Shown here: piece by piece, positions 13,730 through 46,575 of the stretch
How positions within the stretch are numbered: position 1 is the first letter of the stretch
Layout: each line of letters starts with the position of its first letter
Assembly: GCA_030652315.1 (NCBI GenBank)
Contig: JAUSAX010000122.1
Span: 2,520 to 66,519, forward strand
Direction: 5' to 3'
DNA length: 64,000 nucleotides
Origin: Afipia sp.
GTDB lineage: Bacteria > Pseudomonadota > Alphaproteobacteria > Rhizobiales > Xanthobacteraceae
The notes under the pieces: model-generated
Database searches by the model: none
What the model was told of the DNA's origin: nothing
Seen by the model: only the letters and a program-made list of their open reading frames with translations
Position numbers and translations under genes: made by a program

Positions 13730-13819
13730 GGAAGGGTGGCCGAGTGGTTTAAGGCACCGGTCTTGAAAACCGGCGTGCCTGCAAGGGCACCGTGGGTTCG
13801 AATCCCACCCCTTCCGCCA
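13730..13819 (+). tRNA. tRNA-Ser (anticodon TGA)
   Basis: 90-nt cloverleaf: GGAAGGG/CCCTTCC acceptor, CCGGT-CTTGAAA-ACCGG anticodon arm, long variable arm, GGTTCGAATCC, G73, encoded CCA. Confidence 0.97.
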
Positions 13820-16395: not shown

Positions 16396-16706
16396 GCCTG
16401 ACCGCCCGTGTTTTCCGCCTTGGCCGTACTGCCAGTATCGCTGCCAGTCACCGGAGGCTCCTCCGGATAACCAACGCGCCGGAGCCGGAATCCGTTCCCG
16501 GTGGTGGCAAGTCTCCCCGTCCGAGGTCCGCGGATCTGAAGAAAAAACCCATGAAATCAGGCGAAACCGGAGCCACCGGTCCGGCGCCCCGCGCCATGCA
16601 GGCCGGTTAACGAAACCTGAATCGACGATCCGGATATCGGCGCTTTGATTCAAATTTTCCGAAACTTTCGCAGGCTATGAATACGCTTCAATTAGGAGCG
16701 CAGTCG

Positions 16707-16973
16707 ATGGCCGTTTTCAGGAAAGAGTCCCGCAAGCCCCGCCACACAACCCGGCGCGATGCGTGGATGCTGCTCGACGGGGGATTTGCAAAACGCAATT
16801 GCACCGTTCTCGATCTGTCGTCCGGCGGCGCGCGCGTCCAACTGGCGGACATCGGGCCGCTCGGAAGCAGGCTCAGTCTTGCGCTCACAGGCGACGTGCG
16901 AAAAGTCACGCATTGCCGCCTGATCTGGCGCAAGGACAACATCATCGGCGTTGAGTTTCTTGAGCGCACCTGA
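16707..16973 (+). CDS. single-domain PilZ protein
   Basis: RxxxR (RKESR) and DxSxxG (DLSSGG); AGGAG SD. Confidence 0.85.
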   Translation: MAVFRKESRKPRHTTRRDAWMLLDGGFAKRNCTVLDLSSGGARVQLADIGPLGSRLSLALTGDVRKVTHCRLIWRKDNIIGVEFLERT

Positions 16974-17007
16974 TGTGCTCGAGCCGCGCCCGCGGCTGAA
17001 CGAATCC

Positions 17008-17091
17008 GGAGAGGTGGCTGAGTGGCTTAAGGCACCGCGTGCGGTACACGGGCAACCGTGTCGGAGGTTCGAATCCTTCCCCTCTCCGCCA
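17008..17091 (+). pseudogene. tRNA-Ser-derived gene lacking the 7-nt anticodon loop
   Basis: GGAGAGG/CCTCTCC acceptor, D arm, ACACGG-GCAA-CCGTGT variable arm, GGAGG-TTCGAAT-CCTTC, G73 and CCA. The anticodon arm is only CCGCGTGCGG (10 nt vs 17), and there is one extra C at the T/acceptor junction. Confidence 0.85.
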
Positions 17092-17132
17092 TCACCAAGC
17101 ACCTGAAACGCCGCGCTCGTTTTTCCGAAACA

Positions 17133-17411
17133 TCAGCGCCGGGAACGTGTGCCTCTCGTCGCGCCCGGCTCGATCGAGTCCGGATATACGCTGCGGTTTT
17201 GCGCAAGTCTCCAATTCGGCGCGCACGTCCCGTTCAGGCCGCCGGTGCTCGCCTGGCACTGCGCCATCGACGTGTAGTCACATTGCTCGATAGAGCCGCC
17301 CCACCCCTGAACGTAGGTCATGCAATAGGGATAGTCGGTGGCCTGCGCCGGAGCCTGACCCAAAAGGAACAGCCCAGCGAGTGCCAGCAAGATGCGGTGC
17401 GGATAGGTCAT
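17133..17411 (-). CDS. DUF3551-type small secreted protein
   Basis: Signal peptide; YPYC...CDYTSMAQCQAS..G..GTC..N pattern. Confidence 0.8.
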   Translation of the reverse strand: MTYPHRILLALAGLFLLGQAPAQATDYPYCMTYVQGWGGSIEQCDYTSMAQCQASTGGLNGTCAPNWRLAQNRSVYPDSIEPGATRGTRSRR

Positions 17412-21277: not shown

Positions 21278-23530
21278 CTATTTGGTTGTCAGGGCAACGA
21301 CACCGTTCCAGTCGTCCGGCGGCGGAGTTTTGCGGAATGTTTCGATCCGCTCGGAATAGAGGTCATAGAGCACGCTGAAGCTCCGCGCTTCGTCGGCAGT
21401 GCGGCCCTTCGCGATTGCAGCGAGAGCGCCGTCCCAATCGCGGCTGCGGTAGTGGCCCAGCATCTCGATGTTGAGGTTGCGCAGGCGCTGAAACGGCCCC
21501 GATTTGGCAACATCTTCCCGCCCGACGATCGCATAAATCACCTCGGGCTCCTTCTTGCCCTTCACGGTGATGAAATCGATTTCGAGGATCGCGAACTTGT
21601 CCTTTGCCGCCAGCGCCGTCGCCGATCCCGCGATGATCGGCACCCCGTAGGACTTCGACTGCCCCTCAAGCCGCGAGGCCAGGTTCACGCTGTCACCCAG
21701 CACCGAATAGTCGAATCGCAGGTTGGACCCCATGTTACCGACCACGCAGGTCCCGGTATTCAGACCGATGCCGACACGCATCGGAATGAACGGCTTGCCA
21801 GCCTCATTTGCCTCGCGCTCACGTTCAACATTCAGCGCCTCGATGCGGTCGATCATGTCGAGCGCTGCATTGCACGCGTTGATCTGATGTTGCTGATCGC
21901 TCAACGGCGCGTTCCAGAACGCCCTGGTGGCGTCGCCCATGTACTTGTCGATAGTGCCCTTGCGATCGAGGATCGCATTGGTGAGCGGTGTCAGGAACCG
22001 GTTCATCAGCGATGTCAGGCCTTGCGGATCCCGCTTGAACTGCTCTGAGATGGCAGTGAAGCCGCGCACGTCGCTGAACATGATGGTCATGTCCCGCTCC
22101 TCGCCGCCGAGCACGAGCTTCTCCGGCGACTGCGCCAGCTGTTCAACCAGCGCCGGCGACAGGTACTGTCCGAAGGCCGAACGGATACGGCGGCGCTGCG
22201 CCTGTTCGCGAAAGTAGCTGCTGAACACCAGCACCAGATAGATCGCGGTGCTCGCGATCAGCGGAAACGTGAAATCGATCAGCAGCCGGTGCTCTGCGAA
22301 GAAGTACCAGGACGTCGCCACCATGATGCTGACAATGACGGCGCCGAACACCAGCAGCGAGATGGCGCTGAGGATCGGCGCGAGCCAGATAATCGCGATT
22401 CCGAACAGGATCGCGGCCAGCACCTCCGCGCCGATCGCATAGTTCGGCTGCGACAGCACCGAGCGGGTCAGCGCGCTCTCCAGCACCTGCGCGTGAACCT
22501 CGACGCCCGGCATCACCGGATCAAGCGGTGTGGTCTTCACGTCCAGCAATCCGACAGCCGAGGTGCCGATCAGGATCAACTTGCGCGAAATCTGATCGGG
22601 ACCGACCACACCGTCCAGCACATCGGCTGCCGATACATAACGCGCCGCATCGTGTTTCGCGAAATGCACCCAAAGCTGGCCGTTGCGATCGGTGGGGACT
22701 TCAAATCCGGGCACCGCCACGCTCTTCACGCCAGCCTCGTCCGACTTGATGAGGATGGTGTCGGACTTGGTGACGATACGCAGCATCTCGAACGTCAGCG
22801 AGGGCATCAATTCGCCCTGCGCCAGCATGACCATCGGGACGCGGCGGACGATACCGTCGCGCTCGGTGCGGATCGTGAACAGGCCGCGCCCGGGAGCGGC
22901 CTCCTCAAGCACCGGAATATTCCGCAGCAGCCCCGGGAATTGCAGCAGGAACGGCCGTGGGTCGCCGCCCAGCGTCGCAAGTCCCGTGAGGGGTAACTTC
23001 AGCTCAGGCTGCGGCACAAACCTCGGCAGGCCGGATTCGCCGAGGACCGCAGGTGATTTCCGCAGCACGTCGGCGAGCACCTGATCGTTGCTGGGCAGCG
23101 CCCGCAACTTCGTCCGGCTCTCCTCATCAAGATCGCGAAACGCGTCCGCAGCCACCCCCGGCGAAAGCCGGTCCTGCTCCGCGAAGACGATATCGAAGGC
23201 AATTGCGGCGGCGCCGAGATCGGTCAGCCGCTGAACAAGGTCGGCGACGCGCGTGCGCGGCCACGGCCATTGCCCGAACTTGGCGAGGCTTTTCTCGTCG
23301 ATGTCGATAATGACGACGGGGCGCTGCGTGGTCTCGCGCGGCTTGAGGATTTGATATCCATCGAAGGTGCGGACACGCAACTCTTCGAGCGGGATCGGAT
23401 CGGCAATGCGAACACCGAGCATCGCGATCAGAAGCAAAAGACACAACAGCCGCGCGTAGCCGAACAGCTTCGCATAACGCCTGATACGCGCGAGAAAACG
23501 CACCGCCGATTTCATTACCGCCCGCACCAT
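21278..23530 (-). CDS. CHASE2-domain class III adenylate cyclase
   Basis: Periplasmic CHASE2 (IDIDEKSL...GQWPWPR), 3 TM helices, then FSDVRGFT, IDKYMGD and FDYSVLGDSVNLASRLE (adenine-specifying K/D; catalytic D, D, N, R). Confidence 0.92.
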   Translation of the reverse strand: MVRAVMKSAVRFLARIRRYAKLFGYARLLCLLLLIAMLGVRIADPIPLEELRVRTFDGYQILKPRETTQRPVVIIDIDEKSLAKFGQWPWPRTRVADLVQRLTDLGAAAIAFDIVFAEQDRLSPGVAADAFRDLDEESRTKLRALPSNDQVLADVLRKSPAVLGESGLPRFVPQPELKLPLTGLATLGGDPRPFLLQFPGLLRNIPVLEEAAPGRGLFTIRTERDGIVRRVPMVMLAQGELMPSLTFEMLRIVTKSDTILIKSDEAGVKSVAVPGFEVPTDRNGQLWVHFAKHDAARYVSAADVLDGVVGPDQISRKLILIGTSAVGLLDVKTTPLDPVMPGVEVHAQVLESALTRSVLSQPNYAIGAEVLAAILFGIAIIWLAPILSAISLLVFGAVIVSIMVATSWYFFAEHRLLIDFTFPLIASTAIYLVLVFSSYFREQAQRRRIRSAFGQYLSPALVEQLAQSPEKLVLGGEERDMTIMFSDVRGFTAISEQFKRDPQGLTSLMNRFLTPLTNAILDRKGTIDKYMGDATRAFWNAPLSDQQHQINACNAALDMIDRIEALNVEREREANEAGKPFIPMRVGIGLNTGTCVVGNMGSNLRFDYSVLGDSVNLASRLEGQSKSYGVPIIAGSATALAAKDKFAILEIDFITVKGKKEPEVIYAIVGREDVAKSGPFQRLRNLNIEMLGHYRSRDWDGALAAIAKGRTADEARSFSVLYDLYSERIETFRKTPPPDDWNGVVALTTK

Positions 23531-23548
23531 GCCGCTAGCCGATACCCG

Positions 23549-24946
23549 TCATTTTTCCCGGAATGCACGCATGAGCTGGTCGCTGAACGGCTTCGCGAGA
23601 TAGGATATCATGGTGCGCTCGCCCGTCTGCACAAAAGCCTCGACCGGCATGCCGGGCATCAGCCTGACATCCCCGAGCCGCGCCACTTCTGCCGGCGGCA
23701 GCGAGACGCGGACGGTGTAATAGCTCTGGCCAGTGCGCTGGTCGATCGTAGTGTCCGGCGAAATCCGGCTGATGGTGCCGTTCAGTTCCGGCGTGGTGCG
23801 CTGATTGAAGGCTGACAGCCGGAGCAGCGTCTTCTGGCCGATCCGCAACTGATCGATGTCCTGCGGATTGACCTTGGCCTCGACGGACAGATTGTCGGAG
23901 TCCGGCACGATCAGCATGACCGCATCGCCGGCGGTGATGACACCGCCGACGGTGTGGACCGTCGACTGAAGCACCATGCCGTCCTGCGGGGCGCGAATAT
24001 CGATGCGGCGCAGCTGATCCTCGGCCGTCACCTTGCGTTCGACGAACTCGCCGATCTTGTCGTTGATCTCGCGCATCTCCTTGGAGACCTCGCTGGAGAG
24101 ATCCTTGTCGATCTGGATGATCTGTAGTTCGATCTCCGTGATTTTGCCCTTGGCCTGCGCCTTCTGGGCGACGAATTGCGCACGGTCGCCGTCGAGCCGT
24201 GCTGCGTCCCGCTCAAGAACGGTCAGCCGTGAAATCTGCACAAGGTTCTTGGCGAACAGATCGCGGACGCCAACAAGCTCCTTCTGGATGAGTTCAATCT
24301 CGCGCGACTTGGCGTTCTCCTGCGCCTCAAGGCCGCCGATCTCCTCCTTGAGCTGGGCGATACGCTCCTTGAGCTGGGCCTTCTGGTTGACCCGACCGGA
24401 TGAGCGCACCTGAAACAGCTTGACCTCGTTGCCGATCAGCGACCGAACATCCGGATTGGCGAACGATTCCATCAGCTCTGGCGGAAAAGTAATGCGTTCT
24501 GCGCCATCCTGCTCCGCCAGCAATCGTGCCCGGCGCGCCCACAATCCGTCCAGGCCTTTGGTGACAATGGCAAGACTTGCCTTGGTCACCGTGTCGTCGA
24601 GGCGAACCACGACGTCACCGGCCTTGACGCGGTCGCCGTCGCGCGCCCTCACCTCGCCGACGACACCGCCTGTCGGGTGCTGCACTTTCTTGACGTTGGA
24701 ATCGACCACGATGGAGCCGGGCGCGATCAGCGCGCCGGATATCTGCGCGGTCGAGGCCCAGCCGCCGATGCCGCATGTCAGCAGCGTGACGACGACAAGT
24801 CCCACGATCAAATGAAAACGGATGGACCTGCGCGATCCCGGCTGATCGAGGCTCTTGAAGATCGAGAGGCGTTCGAGCGGTGAAAACAAGGCGGTGAAGA
24901 TGCGGCGCACAATGTTTTCTGTTCTGGCGAGGGGCGGCTTGCTCAT
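23549..24946 (-). CDS. HlyD-family type I secretion membrane fusion protein (PrtE/PrsE-like)
   Basis: VQHPTGG, IRAPQDG and PGMPVEAF..TGERT motifs; long coiled coil. Confidence 0.93.
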   Translation of the reverse strand: MSKPPLARTENIVRRIFTALFSPLERLSIFKSLDQPGSRRSIRFHLIVGLVVVTLLTCGIGGWASTAQISGALIAPGSIVVDSNVKKVQHPTGGVVGEVRARDGDRVKAGDVVVRLDDTVTKASLAIVTKGLDGLWARRARLLAEQDGAERITFPPELMESFANPDVRSLIGNEVKLFQVRSSGRVNQKAQLKERIAQLKEEIGGLEAQENAKSREIELIQKELVGVRDLFAKNLVQISRLTVLERDAARLDGDRAQFVAQKAQAKGKITEIELQIIQIDKDLSSEVSKEMREINDKIGEFVERKVTAEDQLRRIDIRAPQDGMVLQSTVHTVGGVITAGDAVMLIVPDSDNLSVEAKVNPQDIDQLRIGQKTLLRLSAFNQRTTPELNGTISRISPDTTIDQRTGQSYYTVRVSLPPAEVARLGDVRLMPGMPVEAFVQTGERTMISYLAKPFSDQLMRAFREK

Positions 24947-26709
24947 GGTTGGCCTCCTCCTCCCTTGTCCGACACGATCTTGATGGCGGGCGGGGCCGCG
25001 ACAGGGCGCTGCAGCACCTGGCCGAGGACAGCCTCCTTTGGTCCGAATGCCTGAACCCGCCCGTCCTTCAAGACCAGAACGAGATCGACGCTCTCGATGC
25101 CGATCGGGCGATGGGCGACCACGACAACAACGCCGCCCCGCGCGCGGACCGCAAGGATGGCCTTGTTCAGCGCCACATCGCCTTCGCTGTCGAGGTTGGA
25201 ATTCGGCTCATCCAGCACCACGAGAAACGGATTGCCGTAGAGCGCCCGCGCCAGCGCGATCCGCTGGGCCTGTCCGGCCGACAGCACGCTGCCCTGATCG
25301 CCGATCTGGGTATCATAGCCGTCCTTCATGCCGATGATCAGGTCGTGGACGCGGGCTTCCCGGGCAGCCGCAATAATATTATCCGGCGACGCATCGTCCT
25401 CGAAGCGCGAAATGTTCTGGGCGATGGTGCCGGCGAACAGCTCCACGTCCTGCGGCAGGTAGCCGATATGGCGGCCGAGGATTTCCGGCGACCATTGGTC
25501 GAGCGCTGCGCCGTCGAGCCGCACCTTGCCGCGGAGCGGCTGCCAGACGCCGACCAGCGCCCGCACCAGCGAGGATTTGCCCGATCCGCTGGGACCGATG
25601 ATGCCGACGCCCTGCCCCGCCTCAAGTGCGAACGTGATGTCCTGCCCCACCACCTTCTGTTCGCCCGGGGGGGCGATGGTGAGCGCCTCGACGGAGACCT
25701 TGTTGGCCGGGGTTTCAAGCAGGGTCGGAGCGCTTTGTTCCGGCAGCATGCCCAGCAGCCGGTTGAGCCGGTGCCAGCTTTGCCGGGCGGCCACGAAACC
25801 CTTCCAGTGTGCAATCGCGAGATCGACCGGCGCCAGCGCCCGGGCGCTGAGGATCGACCCGGCAATGATGATGCCCGCGGTCGCCTGCTGGTTGATGACC
25901 AGATAGGCGCCGACGCCGAGCACGGCGGATTGCAGCATCATGCGCATCACCTTGGCGATGGCGCCGAGCCCGCCCGCGACGTCGCTGGCCCGCTGGTTGC
26001 TCGCGAGGTAGTCGCGGTTGGACTCCTCCCATTGCCTGCCGACACGGCCCGCCATGCCCATCGCGGCCAGCACCTCGGCATTGCGGCGGCTCGCCAGCGC
26101 AAGGTCCTGCCGGCGCATCGCCAGGCCCGTGGAGCGCTTCATGGGGTCGTTGGTCAGGTATTCGGTCAGGATGGTCAGCGCGATCAGGAGAATGGCGCCG
26201 ACCAGCGCGGTCACGCCGATCAGGGGATGGAAGGCGAAACAGATCGCGAGATAGAGCGGCAGCCACGGCAGATCGAACAGCGCGCCCGGCCCCATGCCCG
26301 AGAGGAACGACCGGACGTTGTCGAGATCGCGCAGCGGCTGAAGGCCCTCGCTGCGGTTACCCACGAGCAGCGGCATCCGCACGACGATGTCATAGACGCG
26401 ACGGCTGAGCATTTCGTCCAGCGTCGATCCGATCCGGATCAGGATACGGCCGCGGATCAGATCGAGGATGCCCTGAACGACGTAGAGACCGCCCGCCAGC
26501 ACGATCAGGCCAACAAGCGTCGGAATGCTGCGGCTCGGCAGCACCCGGTCATAGACCTCGAGCATGAAGAAGGAGCCGGTCAGGTAGAGAATGTTGATGA
26601 CAAAGCTCATCACGCCGACGCCGATGAACGCGCTGCGGCAGGCGCGAAGCGCCACGCCCAGTTCGGAACGGGGCGAATGAGCCTGACCTGATGTCTTAGC
26701 GGACTGCAT
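24943..26709 (-). CDS. type I secretion ABC permease/ATPase (PrtD/PrsD-like)
   Basis: YDRVLPS, GPSGSGKS, LSAGQAQR and LDEPNSNLD motifs. Confidence 0.94.
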   Translation of the reverse strand: MQSAKTSGQAHSPRSELGVALRACRSAFIGVGVMSFVINILYLTGSFFMLEVYDRVLPSRSIPTLVGLIVLAGGLYVVQGILDLIRGRILIRIGSTLDEMLSRRVYDIVVRMPLLVGNRSEGLQPLRDLDNVRSFLSGMGPGALFDLPWLPLYLAICFAFHPLIGVTALVGAILLIALTILTEYLTNDPMKRSTGLAMRRQDLALASRRNAEVLAAMGMAGRVGRQWEESNRDYLASNQRASDVAGGLGAIAKVMRMMLQSAVLGVGAYLVINQQATAGIIIAGSILSARALAPVDLAIAHWKGFVAARQSWHRLNRLLGMLPEQSAPTLLETPANKVSVEALTIAPPGEQKVVGQDITFALEAGQGVGIIGPSGSGKSSLVRALVGVWQPLRGKVRLDGAALDQWSPEILGRHIGYLPQDVELFAGTIAQNISRFEDDASPDNIIAAAREARVHDLIIGMKDGYDTQIGDQGSVLSAGQAQRIALARALYGNPFLVVLDEPNSNLDSEGDVALNKAILAVRARGGVVVVVAHRPIGIESVDLVLVLKDGRVQAFGPKEAVLGQVLQRPVAAPPAIKIVSDKGGGGQP

Positions 26710-26853
26710 CGATACCTGGCTTGCCGGCTGCTGTCAGAACGCCAATCTGCGGTTCTTGAATCGTGCGCGGCGACCGGTCCATCATGCCATGACACGGGTG
26801 GGGATTGCAGCCGGAAACATGATCGAAGTTAACGTTTCCGCCCCTCCCACGCA

Positions 26854-29800
26854 TCAGGCGTGGAGGATGAAATCGCTCGCATTCAGCGCTGTAACACCCT
26901 TCAGGAGCAAGGTGTCCGTGGTGCCGTTGAGATGGAGCAGCGTATTGCCGCCGGTATGATCGGCCTGGGCCAACAGGGCCGTCAGCGCCGAAGCATCAAT
27001 GGATGAGATTGCCTGGAAGTCGATCTTGTCGGTGCCATGCGTGAAGTTCAGGACCGTGTCCTGACCGGAATGCGCAGTGAACACAAACTGGTCCATCCCG
27101 GAGCCGCCAATCAAAACATCCTTTTGATTGGCATTTTCAGCCAGGACCAACGGACTTGATCCGCTTTGCCGGAAAACAAAGTTGACGACGTCGAACGCGC
27201 CCTGATTGTCCGTCACAGTCAGCGTGCCATGGCCGATCGGCGAGTTATCCGTGGGCGTATAGACCATGTCGTTTTGAAGCGCAGAGTTGATCGCTGAAAT
27301 ACTACCCGTTGAGATGTGCGGCGCGATCGACCCGTGATCGGCGGTCGTTGTAAGCGTGAACTGGCCGCTTCCACCGTCGTCCACATCCGACACGGACAGT
27401 CCTGAAACCTTTGTCGCGCCAGATCCTTGCGGCGTCAGGGTGATGTTGGCCGTCGATATGACTGGCGCGTCATTGGTGCCATTGATGGTGATCGTTTCGG
27501 TCTGATTGACCGTCGCGCCCTGCGCATCGGTCACGTCGTAGGACACCTTGATCGTGGTATGCTGGCCGACCGCAAGATGATTGAACGTAGCGTTCGTGGG
27601 ATCGATAGTCAGCGTGTGACCGTCGGCACCCAGCGAGAGCCCTGCCGGTATCGTTGACGAGGTGGCCCCGCTGTCGACCTTGTAGGTGACGTCGGTGACG
27701 TGAAGCGTCGCGGTCTCGCCGTCATCGAGGTCGGATGCACCGAGCAGCAGGTTCTTCGTGAATGCCGCCGCGCCTTCGCTCGCGGTGTCGGTCAACGCGG
27801 CAGCAACAGTCGGGGTATCGTTCGTGCCGTTGATCGTGATGGTCTCGGTCTGGTGAACAGTGAGACCTAGAGCGTCCTTGACGTCGTAGGACACCTCAAT
27901 CGTGGTATGTGCGCCGACAGCAAGATGATTGAACGACGGATCGGCGGGATTCACGCTCAGTGTGTTGCCAGACAACGAAATGCCCGCGGGGGCCGTACCC
28001 GAGGCTATCCCGGCACCGACCTTGTAGCTGACGTTTGCGACGGACAGCATATCGCCCTGATCGGCGTCCGTAGCGTTCAACAGCAGATTATTGGTGAAGG
28101 CTGGGCCGCCTTCGCTCGCCGTATCGGATAGCGCCGCGGATACGGTCGGCGTGTCGTTCGCGCCGGTAATGTTCACTGTAAACGTGGCCGTGCCGCTCGC
28201 GCCATGGGCGTCGGTCGTTTGTACCGTGAAGGTGTCCGTATAGTTGCCGGCGTTCAGCGCGTTGATCGCAGCCGCGTTCGGGACGTAGCTGTACGTGCCG
28301 TCACTGTTGACGGTCAGCGAGCCGTAACTGCCAGCTACAGCCACCGCGCTCACATAGGTCGCGCCGTTCAATACGGCGTATGTCAGCCCGCTCGTCTCGC
28401 CGTGATCGACATCGTTGCCAACGAGCGCGCCGTTCAGGGTGGCGAAGGTATCGGCCGCAGCCGTATCGACAAGCGTTGGCGTAGTAACCGATGCAAGTGT
28501 CGGCGCATCGTTGGTACCGGTGATCGTGATGTCGAAGGTCGCGGGCGTGGTGCCGCCGTCGCCATCGCTAACGGTGACCGTGTAGGTCAGCGTGATGGTT
28601 TCGCCGTAAGCCAGATAATCGAACGCCGTCGAGGGAGCGGAAAATCCGAGATCCACCGATCCATTCGCCGCGCCAGCAGCCTTGGCCGTTGTGATCGGCG
28701 TCACGAGTGCGATCAGCTGCGCCGGTGTCAGCGAAAGTCCCGTCGTCACGCCTGCCGTGGTCACGGCGGTAATCAACGCGGTGTGGCCCACATCGCTGAG
28801 ATCGACATCGCCAAACGTCACATGGATCGGCGACGCCAGCGTGAGTGCGTTGGTGTCCGTCTGTTCATTCAACGACGTGGCGGCAATCGCATCGATGACA
28901 GGCGCGTCATTCGTGCCGGTGATCGTGACGTCGAAGGTCGCGGGCGCGGTGCCGCCGTCGCCATCGCTGACGGTGACCGTGTAGGTCAGCTTGATGGTCT
29001 CCCCGGACGCCAGATAGTTGAAGGCCGTCGAGGGAGCGGAAAATCCGAGATCGACTGAACCGGTCGAAGAGCCGGCCGCCTTGGCCGTCGCAATCGGCGT
29101 CACCAGCGCGATCAGCTGCGCCGGTGTCAGCGAAAGTCCCGTCGTCACGCCTGTCGTGGTCACGGCGGTGATCAACGCGGTGTGGCCCACATCGCTGAGA
29201 TCGACATCGCCGAACGTCACATGGATCGGCGACGCCAGCGTGAGTGCACTGGTGTCAGTCTGTTCATTCAACGACGTGGCGGCAATCGCATCGATAACGG
29301 GCGCGTCGTTGGTGCCTGTGATCGTGATCGTCACCGTCTGAGTGACGAGGGCACCGTGCTCGTCGGTGATCGTGACGGTGTAGACCTGAGTAATGGTCTG
29401 ACCTTCGGCCAGCGACTGCAGGGTTGGATCGTTGTCGTCCAACGTGAAGTGCCAGCCGACAGTTCCGGTATTGATGGTATCCGCTTCGTTCTCCACCACC
29501 GGACCGATAGTGAAAGTACCGATGTGCGCGTTCGGTCCAAAGCCAGGCAAGCTGGGGTTGGAGGTCGGGTTCAGGGTCGAGCCCGAGGTCGATGATGTGA
29601 ACACGACTCCGGCCTGATGGCCGTCGGACAGATCGACGTCCCGGAACGTGATCGTTCCATTCTTTACAATCGCATGGTCAGCGGTGACGAGCGTGTCTTC
29701 TTTGACTGCGCCGACGATGTCCGACAGTGAAAGAACGATCGTCGGCGCGCCATTGTCGTTCGGCACATCGTTGTCGCCCGTGATCGTGATCGGAATGATC

Positions 29801-31299
29801 ACGTTGGCAACGTCCGGCCCCGACCGCGACGTGACCTGAATCATGAAGGTCACACTCTCGCCATCGCCCAGGAAATTGAAACCCAGCCGATCGAACGTGA
29901 TGACGCCTGTATTCTGGTCGATGTGCAGGAATTGCGAGAGAAAACCCGCGCTGAGATTCGGGTTGGTGCTGACGGCGCTCTTGATGATCGCGCTGCCTGC
30001 CACGAACGGAGTCGCGGTGTCGTAGAACGGCGCATTGCCGATGTCGGGATCGTCGATATGAACGAGATCCGAGATCTTGAAAGATTCAACCGTCGAAACG
30101 AACGTCTGCTCTGACAGGATCGACGATGCCGAGAACTGCGCCTTGGTGTTGTAGAAAATCCTGTTCTGGTAGGTCGTGATCCCGGTCAGCGGATCGGTCA
30201 CGGCAAAACGCAATTCGATCTGCGTCAGAAATGTTTGCTTATTGCCGGAGTTGGTCGTGAACAGAATTTCGGCGAGGTTGTTGCCGCTGGTGTTCGATCC
30301 GAACTTGGGCAGCTTCGGATTGGAATCGTCCGGATTGTAGTTCGGAAAATAGAGCTGGAAGACCTGCTGGATGATGGCCTTCTCGGCCTGCTGGTCGGCA
30401 AGCGTCTTGAGCTGCTCGATCGCGGTCGGAGGCTGACCGATGCCGAGGCTCGACACGAAGGTCACCTGCCCGGCCTGTGACACGGTGCCGATCAATTGGC
30501 CGGTGACCTTGTCATAGAGATTGTAGGAGCCGGTGTGCCCGTCCGGCTCGACGAGGACCGAGAATTTTGTAGGGCCGTCGTTCGCGCCAATCTCGACCAG
30601 CACTGCCGTGCCGCGAATGCCCATCGTGGCAACCGGTGTTTCGACGCGCATGTTGCCGTTCTTGGCGGTCTGGCCGGCGACGAAGGTGACGGTGCCCTGA
30701 ACAAGGCTCATCAGCGACGAATTCGACGATCCGTTCGGATCGAAGATCATCTCGTTGAGAACCATGCGTGCGTTCGAGGTCATGCCGAACGCGCTGCCGT
30801 CAACGAAGGTCATGCCGATCGAGGAATTCGATCCGGTCTGGACCACATCGCCCTTCTGCACGGCGGCGCCGATCTGCAGTTCAACGGAGACGCCGTTCCG
30901 GATCACGGATGCGCTGCCGGACATCTTCAAGACGGTACCGATCACCGCGCCTGCAGCAGGTGCTGCTGTTGCCTGAGCGTAGTGAACGTGTCCGGTCAAT
31001 GCATCGACGATATGACCGCCGAGCGTCGCGCCGTCTTTCGTCGACAGGGCGGGTCGCGTTTCACCCTTGAAGTAATTGCCGACGACGAATTTCTGGTTGT
31101 TGCCTGAAATGATCAGGTCGCTGCCGATCCGGGTATAGTCGCCGGAAAACAGCAGATGTGCATCAGGAACGACAACATGGCTGTCGGATGCGTGGTGCTG
31201 GACGAAGCCTGGCTTTGAATCGAATGCAAAGCGCTCGCCACCCAGTGATACCGGGGAGTCGTGCGAAAATTCGGAATCAAATGGTCCGGCGAAATTCAA
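26854..31299 (-). CDS. 1481-aa type I-secreted VCBS/cadherin-like repeat protein with an N-terminal FecR-like domain (candidate adhesin)
   Basis: FecR/retention-module-like segment (VIGTV...GDVVQTG...TPVATMGIRGT); repeated T.TITG.ND.P units; C-terminal GGSGMD...QFVF...DKIDF...ASDFI secretion signal; no signal peptide. Confidence 0.88.
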   Translation of the reverse strand: MNFAGPFDSEFSHDSPVSLGGERFAFDSKPGFVQHHASDSHVVVPDAHLLFSGDYTRIGSDLIISGNNQKFVVGNYFKGETRPALSTKDGATLGGHIVDALTGHVHYAQATAAPAAGAVIGTVLKMSGSASVIRNGVSVELQIGAAVQKGDVVQTGSNSSIGMTFVDGSAFGMTSNARMVLNEMIFDPNGSSNSSLMSLVQGTVTFVAGQTAKNGNMRVETPVATMGIRGTAVLVEIGANDGPTKFSVLVEPDGHTGSYNLYDKVTGQLIGTVSQAGQVTFVSSLGIGQPPTAIEQLKTLADQQAEKAIIQQVFQLYFPNYNPDDSNPKLPKFGSNTSGNNLAEILFTTNSGNKQTFLTQIELRFAVTDPLTGITTYQNRIFYNTKAQFSASSILSEQTFVSTVESFKISDLVHIDDPDIGNAPFYDTATPFVAGSAIIKSAVSTNPNLSAGFLSQFLHIDQNTGVITFDRLGFNFLGDGESVTFMIQVTSRSGPDVANVIIPITITGDNDVPNDNGAPTIVLSLSDIVGAVKEDTLVTADHAIVKNGTITFRDVDLSDGHQAGVVFTSSTSGSTLNPTSNPSLPGFGPNAHIGTFTIGPVVENEADTINTGTVGWHFTLDDNDPTLQSLAEGQTITQVYTVTITDEHGALVTQTVTITITGTNDAPVIDAIAATSLNEQTDTSALTLASPIHVTFGDVDLSDVGHTALITAVTTTGVTTGLSLTPAQLIALVTPIATAKAAGSSTGSVDLGFSAPSTAFNYLASGETIKLTYTVTVSDGDGGTAPATFDVTITGTNDAPVIDAIAATSLNEQTDTNALTLASPIHVTFGDVDLSDVGHTALITAVTTAGVTTGLSLTPAQLIALVTPITTAKAAGAANGSVDLGFSAPSTAFDYLAYGETITLTYTVTVSDGDGGTTPATFDITITGTNDAPTLASVTTPTLVDTAAADTFATLNGALVGNDVDHGETSGLTYAVLNGATYVSAVAVAGSYGSLTVNSDGTYSYVPNAAAINALNAGNYTDTFTVQTTDAHGASGTATFTVNITGANDTPTVSAALSDTASEGGPAFTNNLLLNATDADQGDMLSVANVSYKVGAGIASGTAPAGISLSGNTLSVNPADPSFNHLAVGAHTTIEVSYDVKDALGLTVHQTETITINGTNDTPTVAAALTDTASEGAAAFTKNLLLGASDLDDGETATLHVTDVTYKVDSGATSSTIPAGLSLGADGHTLTIDPTNATFNHLAVGQHTTIKVSYDVTDAQGATVNQTETITINGTNDAPVISTANITLTPQGSGATKVSGLSVSDVDDGGSGQFTLTTTADHGSIAPHISTGSISAINSALQNDMVYTPTDNSPIGHGTLTVTDNQGAFDVVNFVFRQSGSSPLVLAENANQKDVLIGGSGMDQFVFTAHSGQDTVLNFTHGTDKIDFQAISSIDASALTALLAQADHTGGNTLLHLNGTTDTLLLKGVTALNASDFILHA
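28528..29325 (-). repeat. two near-identical 399-bp (133-aa) tandem intragenic repeats
   Basis: TITGTND anchors at 29311, 28912 and 28513, an exact 399-bp period. Confidence 0.9.
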
Positions 31300-31867
31300 A
31301 CCCTGCCCGCCCGTATCAAAAATTTTATTGTTAAGAAATTGAGAATTCGCAATTCATAGCATCAAAGGCCGCAACCCCATAGAGGATTGAACTAAACGGC
31401 TTGGTTTTACATGCCTCCGTTAAGTACAATGACGGGATCATGACGTGGTCGTTCAGGCGTTACTTTCTAAGTCTATGAAATAGAACTGATATTCTATGCT
31501 GTCCCGCACCATCAAACTCAATTAACAGGGCATATTCAAGCCTAGAGACCAAACGGCCGGCTGAAGAATGATTTGCCGAAACTCAATCTATACTTCAAAT
31601 CTCGCGCGATAAACTCAAGCATCTAATCAGCCGCACACCCAATTACCTTGGATATGCGATGTTTAGCATCCGGAGGCTTGCGCGTTAGCCCTATCTACAA
31701 TTTTAGACAATGTCGTCAACATTAGTTCCGCATATTTGAATCCAGTTGGCGGATTTGTCCCGCGTTTAAGCCGCCGAAAAGGGGACCCGCCCTACTCCTT
31801 GTGACGAAATGATCTGGCCACGAGCACGCATACCTTTGCGGGCCGATGTCCGGACAAGGGGCGTCAC

Positions 31868-32725
31868 ATGTCGGCTTTCAGTGCAGCGCGCGCGGGCGCG
31901 ATAGCGTTTATCTGTATTTTCAGCATGTTGGGCGCCCCCGCGCATGCGGCAGCGTATGCCTTGCGCGAGAGTCCGATCGGTGCCGAGGCAGCCCCCGCAC
32001 CCGCCCCTGCAGAGCCTTTCGGGCTTTCGACCTCCGCCCTGACCGAAGGCCCCCTTCGCGCCAAATGGCTGGCAGTCGAGCGCGCCATAGCGGCCGAGGC
32101 GGATGTCATCGCCGGCTGTACCAGCGATCCCGGACATTGCACCTCCCAGCCAGCGCATCGATTCCTCGAAATCGTCAACGCCGCCGCTGGCCGCGAGGGG
32201 CTCGCGCGTCTGGGCGAAATCAACCGCGCGATCAATCTCGCCATCCGGCCGGTCAGTGACCGCGCGCAGTACGGTGTGGAGGACCACTGGTCCTCACCGC
32301 TGGCCACTCTGGCGGCGGGAGCCGGCGACTGCGAGGACTACGCAATCGCAAAGCTGGTTGCGCTGCGCGCTGCCGGCGTCGCGGCGGAGGACCTCCGCCT
32401 CGTTATCATTCGCGAGAACGCGACCGGCGATGACCATGCCGTGGTCGCGGCGCGGTCCGGCGGTCATTGGCGCGTGCTGGACAACCGCACGTTCCTGATG
32501 ATCGAGGACAACGGATTCGGCAAATACCGGCCGCTGTTTGCAATCGACGCGGACGGCGCAAAACGCTTTGAACAGCCGATGTATGCGAATGCTGCACCGA
32601 TCACGCAGTCCCGCCCCGCCGAGATCGAGACGCGCAATCCCGTCGTCGATGTCGGCGCAACGGCGGTCGGATCGAACACGGCGACTGTAGCGTTCGACGA
32701 GTTCTGTATGACGCTTGCACTGTAA
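31868..32725 (+). CDS. transglutaminase-like cysteine protease (BTLCP, LapG-like)
   Basis: Signal peptide; GDCEDYAIAK (Cys), DHAV (His) and VLDN (Asp) triad. Confidence 0.9.
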   Translation: MSAFSAARAGAIAFICIFSMLGAPAHAAAYALRESPIGAEAAPAPAPAEPFGLSTSALTEGPLRAKWLAVERAIAAEADVIAGCTSDPGHCTSQPAHRFLEIVNAAAGREGLARLGEINRAINLAIRPVSDRAQYGVEDHWSSPLATLAAGAGDCEDYAIAKLVALRAAGVAAEDLRLVIIRENATGDDHAVVAARSGGHWRVLDNRTFLMIEDNGFGKYRPLFAIDADGAKRFEQPMYANAAPITQSRPAEIETRNPVVDVGATAVGSNTATVAFDEFCMTLAL

Positions 32726-35094: not shown

Positions 35095-35270
35095 GAGGCG
35101 GACTCCGATGAGGTGGCCACGCCTTGTTGCGAAAGCCAGGCAGCGCGTCAAGGCGACAATCGCGTGAGCGGTAATCCCCGCTTATGCGCTGCGATAACGC
35201 CAACTTATTTGCCATTTGGACGCCAGTGTCGGACAAATGGCGACCGATCCTTCAGATTTCCGGCCCGTCA

Positions 35271-35993
35271 ATGACCGCCTCGCCCCGCATCCTCCCGTCC
35301 GGAGATACTGCCCTGACGGTCGAGTTCGGGCGCAGCATCGATCCGGCAATCAACCGGCAGGTTCTGGCGCTTGACCGCAGCGTCGCGAGCGAGGCTGTGA
35401 CCGGCGTGCTGGAGACGGTTCCGACCTACCGTTCGCTTCTGGTCCACTACGATCCGCTGCTGGTCGGTTACGCAGCATTGTCGGAAAAGCTGCTCGCGCT
35501 GGCGCAGCGACCTGTTCCCGCCGAAACCGGCGTGCGGCGCTGGCGCGTTCCTGTGGTCTATGGCGGCGACTACGGCATCGATCTCGACGATGTCGCGCGC
35601 GCGCACAACATCTCGACATCCGACGTGATCGCGAAGCATACCGGCAGCGAGTACCGCGTGGCGATGATCGGTTTCACGCCCGGCTTCGCCTATCTGAGCG
35701 GCCTCGATCCCGCCATTGCAACGCCGCGCCGCGAAAGTCCGAGGACGCATACGCCGCCCGGCACCATATCCATCGGCGGCGTGCAGGCCTGCGTGCAATG
35801 CCTGGCCGCGCCGAGCGGTTGGCATCTCTTGGGACGAACGCCGGTCCGCACCTTTCATCCGCAACGCGATCCGGTGTTCCTGATGGAGCCCGGCGATGCC
35901 GTGATCTTCCATGCCATCGCGGCCAGCGAATTCGCCGCGCTCGATCGCGCGGCTGAGCGCGGCGAGACCGTCGCCGAATTGATCGCGTCATGA
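35271..35993 (+). CDS. pxpB: 5-oxoprolinase subunit B
   Basis: GD.ALTVEF, VPTYRSLLV, GFTPGFAYL and GWHLLGRT motifs. Confidence 0.9.
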   Translation: MTASPRILPSGDTALTVEFGRSIDPAINRQVLALDRSVASEAVTGVLETVPTYRSLLVHYDPLLVGYAALSEKLLALAQRPVPAETGVRRWRVPVVYGGDYGIDLDDVARAHNISTSDVIAKHTGSEYRVAMIGFTPGFAYLSGLDPAIATPRRESPRTHTPPGTISIGGVQACVQCLAAPSGWHLLGRTPVRTFHPQRDPVFLMEPGDAVIFHAIAASEFAALDRAAERGETVAELIAS

Positions 35994-37093: not shown

Positions 37094-37105
37094 CGAGGCG
37101 TATCC

Positions 37106-40794: not shown

Positions 40795-40825
40795 GCGGTT
40801 CCCCGCATGGCTAACGGATCAAAGG

Positions 40826-44529: not shown

Positions 44530-44532
44530 GTC

Positions 44533-45762: not shown

Positions 45763-45771
45763 GCCGCGCTC

Positions 45772-46563: not shown

Positions 46564-46575
46564 TGTCATTCTCCC

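What the first reader, a model, noticed from the sequence alone, without database searches (positions are those of the whole stretch)
17008..17091. Anticodon-less tRNA-Ser that keeps the SerRS identity elements
Seen: an 84-nt tRNA-Ser body whose anticodon arm is 10 nt (CCGCG/TGCGG), exactly the 7-nt loop short. It retains G1-C72, G2-C71, A3-U70, C11-G24, G73, encoded CCA and a perfect 6-bp GNRA-capped variable arm. It has one extra C at the T/acceptor junction and lies 34 bp after a PilZ gene on the same strand. Established: bacterial SerRS ignores the anticodon and reads the variable arm and acceptor stem, and some tyrosine integrases use the 7-bp anticodon loop as their crossover segment. 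Inference: (a) a chargeable non-decoding seryl donor or a decoy resistant to anticodon nucleases, or (b) a scar of faulty element excision. The stem resembles tRNA-Ser(CGA) from memory.
Basis: partly seen in the sequence, partly recalled or inferred. Interest (0 to 1): 0.68.

Follow-up and report, generated by a model that had tools for sequence, protein, structure and literature searches.

The report
Conserved serine tRNA gene lacking anticodon
This is a real gene, strongly conserved across the genus Afipia, for a serine-tRNA look-alike that has no anticodon loop and so cannot read codons; its relatives in many soil bacteria sit next to an enzyme of the kind that takes amino acids from charged tRNAs, so it may carry an amino acid for chemistry outside protein synthesis.

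Summary
Window 17008-17091 (+) is an 84-nt class-II tRNA-Ser body whose anticodon arm is only 10 nt (CCGCG/TGCGG).

It is not an assembly error, a plain pseudogene or an excision scar.
- The same gene lies after the same PilZ gene in 13 Afipia species-level genomes.
- It is 97% identical there, while the flanking intergenic DNA is 36-45% identical.
- All substitutions fall in loops or keep a base pair.
- An Afipia isolate assembly also holds an intact tRNA-Ser(CGA), so this is an extra copy.
- The same genomes hold a second anticodon-less paralog after tRNA-Cys.

The "extra C" is not a lesion. Some canonical tRNA-Ser genes have it too.

The element belongs to a broad family that is not in Rfam. 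I found 74 distinct sequences in Acidobacteria, Verrucomicrobia, Chloroflexi, Alphaproteobacteria and others. In all of them a tetraloop-type hairpin replaces the anticodon loop.

In 48 of 64 long-arm members, a 290-aa gene lies alongside on the same strand. Its predicted fold matches aminoacyl-tRNA-dependent transferases (Sbb17/Sba18, FemX, MprF).

Best reading: a non-decoding, probably serylated, aminoacyl-carrier tRNA. Expression, charging and the Afipia consumer enzyme are untested.

The parts
17008..17091 (+). Anticodon-less tRNA-Ser(CGA)-derived tRNA-like gene (84 nt, CCA encoded)
   Evidence: Sequence. ARAGORN hit with an alternative fold. Sub-threshold tRNA-Sec match. Identical or near-identical in 13 Afipia genomes.
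17008..17014 (+). Acceptor stem, 5' strand (GGAGAGG). It pairs with 17081-17087 (CCTCTCC). G73 is at 17088 and CCA at 17089-17091.
   Evidence: Read from the sequence. The only variant in Afipia is A5->G, which keeps a G.U pair (L032).
17017..17033 (+). D arm of bacterial tRNA-Ser type (G10-C25, C11-G24, U12.G23; loop AGUGGCUUAA with G18 G19)
   Evidence: Read from the sequence. The variants are U16->C and A22->U only. The same 27-nt 5' half occurs in members from other phyla.
17035..17044 (+). Vestigial anticodon arm: CCG-CGUG-CGG mini-hairpin (A26-U44 can add a fourth pair); no anticodon
   Evidence: The loop varies (CGUG, CAUG, CACG), and A. clevelandensis has a 4-nt insertion here.
17046..17061 (+). 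Long variable arm: 6 bp (ACACGG/CCGUGU) capped by GCAA
   Evidence: Only the loop varies in Afipia: GCAA, GAAA, UAAA.
17063..17080 (+). T arm (GGAGG UUCGAAU CCUUC) plus one extra C. The extra C reads equally well as a junction bulge or as part of an 8-nt T loop.
   Evidence: Canonical tRNA-Ser genes elsewhere have the same extra nucleotide.
16707..16973 (+). PilZ-domain gene (88 aa from the conserved start; a longer ORF starts at 16677). It ends 34 nt before the element on the same strand and may be co-transcribed with it.
   Evidence: PF07238. The gene is called on an independent contig. Synteny holds in all Afipia loci and in L066.
17133..17411 (-). DUF3551 secreted-protein gene, the conserved downstream neighbour
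   Evidence: PF12071. Syntenic in Afipia and L066.
13730..13819 (+). Canonical tRNA-Ser(UGA), for comparison. It has a normal 7-nt anticodon loop and no extra nucleotide.

Best explanation
The element is a functional, vertically inherited gene for a tRNA-Ser(CGA)-derived RNA that has left decoding.

What it keeps and what it lacks:
- It keeps the parts used by RNase P, the 3'-end/CCA machinery and SerRS: acceptor stem, G73, CCA, D arm, long variable arm and T arm.
- Its anticodon arm is a stub (3-4 bp plus a tetraloop), so it cannot pair with a codon.

Inferred steps:
1. It is transcribed, possibly as the 3' end of the PilZ transcript.
2. It is matured like a tRNA.
3. It is serylated by the housekeeping SerRS.
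4. The seryl ester is used outside the ribosome by an aminoacyl-tRNA-dependent transferase. This is what I infer for its long-arm relatives, which are encoded next to a Fem/MprF-fold enzyme.

Shown: the sequence, selection on it, co-existence with an intact tRNA-Ser(CGA), family membership by sequence, and the gene linkage and enzyme fold in relatives.
Inferred: transcription, processing, serylation, and the existence of a consumer in Afipia.
For: 1. Purifying selection. Across 14 Afipia loci the element has 97.4% mean pairwise identity and 77 invariant columns. The 30 nt upstream are 36% identical and the 110 nt downstream 45%. The neighbouring coding sequences are 65-74% identical.
2. Every substitution is in a loop or conserves a pair: A5->G gives G.U, and A22->U gives G13.U22. 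The stub tolerates loop changes and a 4-nt insertion. So selection acts on the acceptor, D, variable and T parts and not on the stub.
3. It is an extra gene, not a lost one. Isolate-like run X16 carries PilZ plus the loop-less gene. A contig of similar depth in the same run carries a tRNA-Ser with an intact CCGCA-CTCGAAA-TGCGG arm.
4. A second anticodon-less paralog (CCGC-UAAC-GCGG, U73) is in the same genomes, always just after tRNA-Cys and before a terminator-like hairpin.
5. A syntenic relative (L066) has PilZ, then the element with CCGCA-GCGA-UGCGG, then DUF3551. Other alphaproteobacterial members are 93-95% identical outside the cap.
6. The family is broad. There are 74 distinct non-canonical sequences. 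68 fold as two clean hairpins between the D and T arms, 45 have tetraloops, and none has a 7-nt loop. The stems covary.
7. Linkage in relatives. 48 of 64 long-arm members have a ~290-aa gene within the 8-kb locus or less. All 48 are on the same strand and most directly abut the element. None of 16 canonical tRNA-Ser genes with the same 3' pattern has this neighbour.
8. That protein has no Pfam domain. Its AlphaFold model (pLDDT 89.8) best matches aminoacyl-tRNA-dependent peptide synthases Sbb17/Sba18 (E 1e-11, TM 0.6), then FemX, MprF, A-PGS/L-PGS and FemA.
9. Established knowledge. [quoted passage not shown] Cyclodipeptide synthases, another class of aminoacyl-tRNA-dependent enzymes, need only the acceptor arm of their tRNA substrates (title of PMC7672478, seen).
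Against: - No Fem-like or AsnB-like gene is in the 64-kb window or in any Afipia locus fetched. The consumer in Afipia is hypothetical.
- Transcription as a discrete RNA is not shown. Contigs in 'RNA?' runs contain the element but also its flanks and other parts of the region.
- No promoter or terminator was predicted around it.
- Charging is untested. The extra nucleotide in the T arm and the stub could lower SerRS or EF-Tu affinity.
- The Cys-adjacent paralog has U73 instead of G73, so not every member need be serylated.
- The tie between the Afipia short-arm form and the Fem-linked long-arm forms rests on sequence similarity (90% outside gaps, identical 27-nt 5' half). This could partly reflect common tRNA-Ser ancestry rather than shared function.
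Confidence: 0.45

Rival explanations
1. It is a functional tRNA-shaped regulatory or titrating RNA. It binds SerRS, a tRNA-modifying enzyme, EF-Tu, RNase P or a tRNA-targeting toxin as a non-decoding mimic or decoy. The charged amino acid is never transferred to a product.
For: The conservation pattern is the same one that supports the best explanation. No consumer enzyme lies near the Afipia gene. Two differently placed paralogs exist, one with U73, which suits binding roles that do not need serine. Known precedents recalled from my own knowledge are B. cereus tRNA-Other and the tRNA-like domain of bacterial Y RNAs (the latter also seen).
Against: Relatives are linked to a transferase-fold enzyme and not to a regulator. 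A decoy for anticodon nucleases would need the loop those enzymes bind. There is no toxin-antitoxin or defence gene in the neighbourhood.
Confidence: 0.25
2. It is a cis-acting tRNA-like processing or stability element for the PilZ mRNA. RNase P cleavage at its 5' end defines the mRNA 3' end, and the released RNA has no role of its own.
For: It lies 29-45 nt after PilZ on the same strand in all Afipia genomes and in L066. No promoter was predicted between them.
Against: Such a signal would not need G73, CCA, a perfect variable arm and a tRNA-Ser D arm kept at 97% identity. Close relatives L092, L103 and L010 have no PilZ neighbour. The paralog follows tRNA-Cys, not an mRNA.
Confidence: 0.1
3. 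It is a dead tRNA-Ser(CGA) gene: a pseudogene or a scar left by imprecise excision of an element that used the anticodon loop as its crossover site.
For: The gap corresponds to the 7-nt loop of alphaproteobacterial Ser(CGA), and the stem is retained. Tyrosine integrases with anticodon-loop crossover sites are known (own knowledge).
Against: It is 97% identical across 13 species while neutral flanks are 36-45% identical. No stem-breaking change occurs. Relatives carry 4-6-nt caps instead of a clean deletion. There is no integrase or island at the locus. A second anticodon-less paralog exists.
Confidence: 0.03
4. It is a decoding tRNA after all, in the alternative cloverleaf that ARAGORN proposes: tRNA-Pro(CGG), with stem CCGCG/CACGG and loop UGCGGUA.
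For: ARAGORN's call.
Against: That fold has a C.A mismatch, G33 instead of U33 and U37 instead of a purine, and it destroys the perfect variable arm. The common Afipia variants CAUG and CACG add mismatches to it, and ARAGORN then finds nothing. Length variants (88 nt in A. clevelandensis; L066, L092, L103) do not fit it.
Confidence: 0.01

Closest known systems
Non-proteinogenic tRNA-Gly isoacceptors of Staphylococcus aureus that feed FemXAB (own knowledge; review context PMC9976931, PMC4052509)
   Same: These are extra tRNA genes kept beside the translational ones. They are charged by the ordinary synthetase and are thought to be reserved for an aminoacyl-tRNA-dependent (Fem-type) transferase rather than the ribosome.
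   Different: The staphylococcal tRNAs keep a normal anticodon loop and can still decode. They escape translation only through weak EF-Tu binding. Here the anticodon loop is gone altogether. In Afipia no Fem-type gene is adjacent.
Canonical bacterial tRNA-Ser(CGA), especially the alphaproteobacterial form with the extra T-arm nucleotide (L041, L054, L063, L108, L133, L136)
   Same: Same acceptor stem, G73, CCA, anticodon-stem sequence CCGCA/UGCGG and GCAA-capped variable arm. Same extra nucleotide on the 3' side of the T/acceptor branch. Identity is 81-83% outside the gap.
   Different: The loop CUCGAAA is missing, and the D and T arms differ. Rfam's tRNA model does not reach its threshold.
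tRNA-like domain of tmRNA
   Same: An aminoacylatable tRNA mimic with acceptor and T arms and no anticodon.
   Different: tmRNA has a G3.U70 alanine identity, no true D stem, no long variable arm, and a large mRNA/pseudoknot domain. ARAGORN finds no tmRNA here.
allo-tRNAs and selC* tRNAs (Mukai et al. 2017, PMC5389517)
   Same: Unusual serine-identity, tRNA-Sec-like class-II tRNAs from Acidobacteria and other soil bacteria. Some are suspected to be non-translational or regulatory.
   Different: allo-tRNAs are defined by 8/4 or 9/3 acceptor/T branches and a long D stem with a tetraloop, and they keep anticodon loops with diverse anticodons. This element has a 7-bp acceptor, a 5-bp T stem plus one extra nucleotide, a normal tRNA-Ser D arm and no anticodon loop.
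Bacterial tRNA-Sec (Rfam RF01852)
   Same: A long variable arm, serylation by SerRS, and a 13-nt 3' strand of the acceptor/T branch. It is the best Rfam match.
   Different: The score is 30.9 bits against a cutoff of 47. The element has no UCA anticodon, no 8-bp acceptor (position 8 is U opposite C) and no 6-bp D stem.
Bacillus cereus tRNA-Other and tRNA-like modules of bacterial Y RNAs (YrlA)
   Same: tRNA-shaped RNAs with roles outside decoding.
   Different: tRNA-Other keeps an anticodon loop. YrlA's tRNA-like module is part of a larger Ro60-binding RNA (PMC4201824, listed). Neither has serine-type class-II architecture.

Membership tests
Canonical decoding tRNA-Ser | 7-nt anticodon loop with U33, a purine at 37 and a serine anticodon on a 5-bp stem | tested here: not met
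   The arm is 10 nt and has no loop. My scan found no canonical arm in any Afipia copy. Rfam's tRNA model scores below its gathering score.
Canonical decoding tRNA-Ser | Class-II body: 7-bp acceptor with G1-C72 and G2-C71, G73, a 3-bp D stem with C11-G24, G18 G19, a long base-paired variable arm and a T loop UUCGAAU | tested here: met
   Read from the sequence. All of these columns are invariant, or change while keeping the pair, in 14 Afipia loci.
Canonical decoding tRNA-Ser | Aminoacylation by SerRS | not testable with these tools
   This needs in-vitro serylation or an in-vivo charging assay. Literature says serine identity is anticodon-independent (PMC9976931).
Anticodon-less tRNA-Ser-like family delineated here (not in Rfam) | tRNA-Ser acceptor/D/variable/T body with one extra nucleotide on the 3' side of the T/acceptor branch | tested here: met
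   The 27-nt 5' half and the ~30-nt 3' end are identical to members from Verrucomicrobia, Acidobacteria and Chloroflexi.
Anticodon-less tRNA-Ser-like family delineated here (not in Rfam) | Anticodon loop replaced by a closed hairpin cap (mostly a tetraloop) | tested here: met
   The Afipia cap is CGUG, CAUG or CACG. In the family, 45 of 68 parsed members have 4-nt loops and none has a 7-nt loop.
Anticodon-less tRNA-Ser-like family delineated here (not in Rfam) | Adjacent same-strand gene for the ~290-aa Fem/MprF-fold protein, often with AsnB-like amidotransferases | tested here: not met
   48 of 64 long-arm members have this gene. tblastn finds none in the window, the Afipia loci, L010, L066, L092 or L103.
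Bacterial tRNA-Sec | 8-bp acceptor + 5-bp T stem, 6-bp D stem, UCA anticodon; Rfam RF01852 at 47 bits or more | tested here: not met
   The score is 30.9 bits. U8 lies opposite C, the D arm is a normal tRNA-Ser one, and there is no anticodon.
allo-tRNA (8/4 or 9/3) | 12-bp acceptor branch split 8/4 or 9/3, long D stem with tetraloop, anticodon loop present | tested here: not met
   The definition comes from PMC5389517. The element has a 7 + 5 branch plus one unpaired nucleotide and a 10-nt D loop.
tmRNA | tRNA-like domain with G3.U70, tag-peptide reading frame, pseudoknots | tested here: not met
   ARAGORN reports no tmRNA. Position 3:70 is A-U, and the RNA is only 84 nt.
tRNA pseudogene / integration scar | Neutral decay: substitutions at the rate of the flanking intergenic DNA, including stem-breaking ones; different lesions in different relatives | tested here: not met
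   The element is 97.4% identical against 36-45% in the flanks, and no stem-breaking change occurs in 14 loci.

The most novel reading that the evidence does not exclude
Bacteria from at least six phyla encode 'aminoacyl-carrier tRNAs'. These are tRNA-Ser derivatives that have lost the anticodon loop and left translation. They are charged by the housekeeping SerRS and serve only as amino-acid donors for Fem/MprF-type transferases. The Afipia gene in this window, and its Cys-adjacent paralog, would be stand-alone chromosomal members of this class whose consumer enzyme is encoded elsewhere.
Probability: 0.4. Interest if true: 0.9.

Novelty: new variant of a known kind. Interest (0 to 1): 0.78.

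Why it matters
tRNAs are known to be borrowed for non-ribosomal chemistry: cell-wall cross-bridges, lipid aminoacylation and natural products. In every studied case the donor is still an ordinary decoding tRNA, or at most an isoacceptor that binds EF-Tu weakly.

A conserved gene for a tRNA that cannot decode at all would show that cells can dedicate a tRNA scaffold purely as an amino-acid cofactor. Relatives encoded beside a Fem/MprF-fold enzyme strengthen that case.

Practical consequences:
- It marks an unannotated RNA family. ARAGORN mislabels members as Pro, Stop, Ala, Leu or 'undetermined' tRNAs, and Rfam's tRNA model does not reach its gathering score on the Afipia form.
- It marks an uncharacterised protein family of more than 400 clusters, all named 'hypothetical'.
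- It offers a natural SerRS substrate that should be orthogonal to the ribosome.
- It gives a testable entry point into what the AsnB-like/Fem-like cassettes of Acidobacteria and Verrucomicrobia make.

Tried and rejected
- Assembly artefact: rejected. An independent contig and 13 or more genomes agree.
- ARAGORN's tRNA-Pro(CGG) fold: rejected by comparative variants.
- tRNA-Sec, allo-tRNA and tmRNA membership: tested and not met.
- Deciding whether the extra nucleotide is a junction bulge or part of an 8-nt T loop: 71 against 72 of 90 sequences fully paired, so undecidable.
- Looking for a consumer enzyme near the Afipia gene:
  - Pfam annotation of 39 large ORFs plus the small neighbours across the window found only ordinary chromosomal genes. 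These include MetRS, a PBP5-type carboxypeptidase, an adenylate cyclase, a type I secretion system with an adhesin and a transglutaminase-like protease, nitrate assimilation and 5-oxoprolinase.
  - tblastn with the Fem-like and AsnB-like proteins found nothing in the window or the Afipia loci.
- Expression evidence from public runs: contigs of 'RNA?' runs hold the element together with its flanks and patchy coverage of the whole region. No conclusion.
- Promoter/terminator scan: nothing useful.
- PilZ synteny outside Afipia: one Bradyrhizobium hit with no element (L039) and one mis-binned contig with a GCGA-capped element (L066).
- PDB sequence search with the 290-aa profile: only spurious cyclophilin hits. 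The fold search was needed.
- Viral contigs: only canonical tRNA-Ser genes and fragments, no anticodon-less member.
- Not done: a whole-genome search of Afipia for the Fem-like gene.
Full report
**1. The observation**

Window 17008-17091 (+) reads:

GGAGAGG TG GCTGAGTGGCTTAAGGC A CCGCG TGCGG T ACACGG-GCAA-CCGTGT C GGAGG-TTCGAAT-CCTTC C CCTCTCC G CCA.

- The acceptor stem has 7 bp, with G1-C72, G2-C71 and A3-U70.
- The D arm is of tRNA-Ser type, with C11-G24 and G18 G19.
- The variable arm is a perfect 6-bp stem capped by GCAA.
- The T arm, G73 and an encoded CCA are present.
- Between A26 and U44 there are only 10 nt, so there is no anticodon loop.
- As RNA this stretch can form only CCG-CGUG-CGG, with A26-U44 as a possible fourth pair.

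A PilZ gene (PF07238) ends 34 nt upstream on the same strand.

The tools treat the element inconsistently.
- ARAGORN reports it as 'tRNA-Pro(cgg)' through a different fold.
- Rfam's tRNA model does not reach its threshold.
- The best sub-threshold Rfam match is tRNA-Sec, 30.9 bits against a cutoff of 47.

A normal tRNA-Ser(UGA) lies at 13730-13819.

**2. It is not an artefact and not decaying**

A pattern that allowed 0-9 nt between the two stem halves found four Afipia genomes, all with zero nt between them. Searches with the 5' half and with the PilZ protein raised this to 13 species-level Afipia genomes. In each, the gene follows PilZ and precedes a DUF3551 gene.

A Logan contig of metagenome run X1 matches 16650-17350 without a single difference. 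Three isolate-like runs (X16, X8, X20) carry PilZ plus the element with no indel in the element.

Mean pairwise identity across 14 loci (13 species; A. birgiae was fetched twice):

| Region | Mean pairwise identity |
|---|---|
| Element (77 invariant columns) | 97.4% |
| 30 nt upstream | 36% |
| 110 nt downstream | 45% |
| PilZ region | 74% |
| DUF3551 region | 65% |

The changes that occur are few.
- A5->G keeps a G.U pair.
- U16->C lies in the D loop.
- A22->U turns G13.A22 into G13.U22.
- The stub loop is CGUG, CAUG or CACG.
- The variable-arm loop is GCAA, GAAA or UAAA.
- A. clevelandensis has a 4-nt insertion inside the stub.

No stem is ever broken. This is the signature of a functional structured RNA whose acceptor, D, variable and T parts matter and whose stub does not.

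**3. Origin, and the 'extra C'**

Among the hits are canonical tRNA-Ser genes with the same extra nucleotide. The extra C is therefore an inherited trait of a tRNA-Ser lineage and not damage.
- tRNA-Ser(CGA) genes of uncultured Alphaproteobacteria: L041, L054, L063, L108, L133 and L136.
- Ser(GCU), Ser(UGA) and Ser(GGA) genes elsewhere.

Whether the extra nucleotide bulges at the junction or enlarges the T loop to 8 nt cannot be decided. 71 against 72 of 90 sequences are fully paired under the two models.

The alphaproteobacterial Ser(CGA) genes have the anticodon arm CCGCA-CUCGAAA-UGCGG. This is the Afipia stem plus the missing loop. Identity outside the gap is 81-83%.

Afipia has not lost Ser(CGA). 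In the 5.4-Mb isolate-like run X16, a 55-kb contig carries a tRNA-Ser that shows no listed difference from L041 across the whole anticodon arm. Its depth (244) is similar to that of the contig carrying the loop-less gene (194). The loop-less gene is an additional copy.

**4. Relatives with other caps, and a second paralog**

Close relatives carry the same stem closed by short caps.

| Locus | Anticodon-arm cap | Element length |
|---|---|---|
| L066 | CCGCA-GCGA-UGCGG | 88 nt |
| L092 | CCGC-AGAU-GCGG | 87 nt |
| L103 | CCGCG-CAAA-UGCGG | 88 nt |
| L010 | ACCGC-GCAAU-GCGGU | 91 nt |

These are 93-95% identical to the Afipia gene outside the cap.

L066 is a 2.5-kb contig binned as Pirellulales. 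It has the PilZ-element-DUF3551 synteny, with proteins 66% and 61% identical. It is therefore an orthologous locus in a more distant relative. A single clean loss of seven bases by an integrase does not explain this series.

The same runs (X16, X8, X20, X1) also contain a second contig. It matches the first 31 nt of the element with one mismatch and then diverges.

A metagenome scan recovered this paralog in nine contigs. One representative sequence (L153) reads:

GGAAAGGTGGCTGAGTGGCTTAAGGCA-CCGC-UAAC-GCGG-C-ACACGG-GAAA-CCGUGU-C-GAAGG-UUCGAAU-CCUGU-C-CCUUUCC-U-CCA

The contigs differ at three positions: idx 12 (T or C), the variable-arm loop (GAAA, GAGA or GCAA) and the T stem (CCUGU or CCUCU).
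- It is 86 nt long, has U73 and carries the extra nucleotide too.
- It lies 15-45 nt downstream of tRNA-Cys(GCA).
- It is followed by a GC-rich hairpin with a T run.
- ARAGORN and Rfam do not call it.

Afipia genomes thus hold two anticodon-less class-II tRNA-like genes.

**5. A broad family**

The exact 27-nt 5' half and the ~30-nt 3' end of the Afipia gene also occur in other groups:
- Verrucomicrobia
- Spartobacteria
- Acidobacteria
- Chloroflexi-related groups (Limnocylindrales and Anaerolineaceae)
- Methylomirabilota
- uncultured Alphaproteobacteria

A large Acidobacteria group has a shorter D loop.

In these members the anticodon arm is a long closed hairpin, typically 8 bp plus a tetraloop.

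I analysed 74 distinct non-canonical sequences.
- 68 fold as two clean hairpins between the D and T arms.
- Arm loop sizes are 3, 4, 5, 6, 8 or 10 nt, and never 7.
- 45 are tetraloops. CUUG occurs 14 times and GCAA 12 times.
- The 8 stem positions show 3-6 different pair types each, which is covariation.

ARAGORN labels these members as Stop(tta), Ala, Leu, Val, Phe, Cys or '???', or misses them.

**6. What the relatives are linked to**

Next to the long-arm members lies a ~290-aa ORF, usually with one or two AsnB-like amidotransferase genes and sometimes a sulfotransferase.
- One AsnB-like gene has the MCGICG N-terminus. It scores 471 bits on TIGR03108 and 451 bits on TIGR01536.
- The other AsnB-like gene lacks the N-terminal Cys.

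The linkage is strong.
- 48 of 64 long-arm loci contain the 290-aa gene within the 8 kb or less that was fetched.
- All 48 are on the same strand as the RNA.
- In most the gene either ends 2-100 nt before the RNA (Verrucomicrobia type) or starts just after it (Acidobacteria type).
- Several of the 16 without it are cut off by a contig end.
- None of the 16 canonical tRNA-Ser genes caught by the same pattern has this neighbour.

The protein is uncharacterised.
- It has no Pfam domain.
- It has one weak NCBIfam hit: TIGR03019, FemAB family PEP-CTERM-associated, E 0.003.
- Its 421 database clusters are all 'hypothetical'.

An AlphaFold2 model from 34 homologs is confident (pLDDT 89.8, pTM 0.83). 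Its best PDB matches are all tandem-GNAT enzymes that take an aminoacyl group from aminoacyl-tRNA:
- aminoacyl-tRNA-dependent peptide synthases Sbb17 and Sba18 (E 1e-11, TM 0.6)
- Weissella FemX
- MprF and the A-PGS/L-PGS domains
- S. aureus FemA

An anticodon-less but otherwise complete tRNA-Ser gene beside such an enzyme is most simply its dedicated aminoacyl donor. This is an inference from linkage and fold, not a demonstrated activity.

**7. Mechanism proposed for the Afipia gene**

Established knowledge supports the idea that the stub should not prevent serylation.
- From my own knowledge of the T. thermophilus SerRS-tRNA complex, SerRS does not contact the anticodon arm.
- Cyclodipeptide synthases, another class of aminoacyl-tRNA-dependent enzymes, need only the acceptor arm (title of PMC7672478).

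I therefore propose the following, all inferred.
1. The RNA is transcribed, perhaps with PilZ.
2. It is matured by RNase P and 3' processing.
3. It is serylated.
4. It cannot be selected on any codon.
5. It hands its serine to a non-ribosomal transferase.

My estimates are about 0.85 that it is a functional non-decoding RNA and about 0.45 for the full seryl-donor chain.

Weak points:
- The 64-kb window is ordinary chromosome with no Fem-like, MprF-like or AsnB-like gene. It holds MetRS, a PBP5-type carboxypeptidase, an RlpA-like protein, an outer-membrane protein, a CHASE2 cyclase, a type I secretion system with a cadherin-like adhesin and a transglutaminase-like protease, nitrate assimilation and 5-oxoprolinase.
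- I could not scan whole Afipia genomes for a consumer.
- Expression is unproven.
- The paralog's U73 suggests that not all members need be serylated.

**8. Rivals**

| Rival | Confidence | Main point |
|---|---|---|
| tRNA-shaped binder or titrator (SerRS, modification enzymes, toxins) | 0.25 | Fits the conservation equally well and needs no nearby consumer |
| RNase P-type processing signal for PilZ mRNA | 0.10 | Fits the position, but not the retention of G73/CCA/variable arm, nor relatives without PilZ |
| Pseudogene or excision scar | 0.03 | Contradicted by the conservation |
| ARAGORN's Pro(CGG) fold | 0.01 | Contradicted by natural variants |

**9. Comparison with known systems, and novelty**

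The element works most like the non-proteinogenic tRNA-Gly species that serve FemXAB in staphylococci, but those keep their anticodons.

It is not a member of several families:
- tRNA-Sec: score below threshold, and no 8/5 branch, 6-bp D stem or UCA anticodon.
- allo-tRNA: no 8/4 or 9/3 branch and no long D stem.
- tmRNA: not found.

No Rfam family reaches its gathering score here. Seven full-text literature searches found no description. I rate it a new variant of a known kind: tRNAs and tRNA-like RNAs used outside decoding. If charging and transfer are confirmed, the family-level picture would be close to a new category.

Noticed in passing
Not in the window. L153:9135-9220 (+) and L146, L147, L149-L152, L154, L155; also contigs of runs X16, X8, X20 and X1: A second anticodon-less class-II tRNA-like gene of 86 nt (representative, L153): GGAAAGGTGGCTGAGTGGCTTAAGGCA-CCGC-TAAC-GCGG-C-ACACGGGAAACCGTGT-C-GAAGGTTCGAATCCTGT-C-CCTTTCC-T-CCA. 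It has discriminator U73. It always lies 15-45 nt after tRNA-Cys(GCA) and before a terminator-like hairpin, between a cyclopropane-fatty-acid-synthase-like gene and dnaB. ARAGORN and Rfam miss it.
   Followed up: partly
L008, L012, L014-L018, L021-L023, L025, L040, L046 and about 35 further loci: A conserved cassette around long-arm anticodon-less tRNA-Ser-like genes. It holds an AsnB-like amidotransferase (MCGICG N-terminus), a ~290-aa protein with no Pfam domain whose predicted fold matches aminoacyl-tRNA-dependent transferases, the RNA, and a second AsnB-like protein that lacks the N-terminal catalytic Cys (MPGIAG...). Some cassettes also have sulfotransferases.
   Followed up: partly
L041:4862-4952, L054:2855-2945, L063, L108, L133, L136, L126, L064, L044, L045, L070, L091, L114, L067, L129; viral L158, L159: Canonical-anticodon tRNA-Ser genes (CGA, GCU, UGA, GGA) in several phyla and two viral contigs have one extra nucleotide on the 3' side of the T arm/acceptor branch (13 nt instead of 12 between the T loop and position 73). 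Some fit a junction bulge and others an 8-nt T loop.
   Followed up: partly
L066 (JADLBW010000261.1, 2563 nt, labelled Pirellulales MAG): This contig carries PilZ (66% identical), a GCGA-capped element and DUF3551 (61% identical) in Afipia order. It is probably an alphaproteobacterial contig mis-binned into a Planctomycetes MAG.
   Followed up: no
window 21278-32725: A cluster on the minus strand holds a CHASE2 adenylate/guanylate cyclase, an HlyD-type and an ABC-type type I secretion pair, and a 1481-aa cadherin/Big_9-repeat protein. A divergent transglutaminase-like cysteine protease (Peptidase_C93/BTLCP) follows. The arrangement resembles Lap-type adhesin systems, which are c-di-GMP controlled. 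A single-domain PilZ gene sits 4 kb away.
   Followed up: no
window 38089-50796: An assimilatory nitrate/nitrite reduction and transport cluster: molybdopterin nitrate reductase, NIR_SIR nitrite reductase, a flavoprotein reductase, and NMT1_2/ABC transporter genes. 5-oxoprolinase genes (CT_C_D, CT_A_B, LamB_YcsF) lie at 35184-37870. This is ordinary chromosomal content.
   Followed up: no
runs X22-X41: About twenty small 'RNA?' runs from unrelated coded organisms contain the exact 84-nt element with A. broomeae-like flanks. This fits Afipia being a common contaminant of reagents or water in sequencing libraries (the contaminant status is my own knowledge).
   Followed up: partly
L039 (Bradyrhizobium sp. 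U87765), 1501-2040: The closest PilZ homolog outside Afipia (61% identical) has no tRNA-like element downstream. The PilZ-linked gene therefore looks restricted to Afipia and a few close relatives.
   Followed up: no
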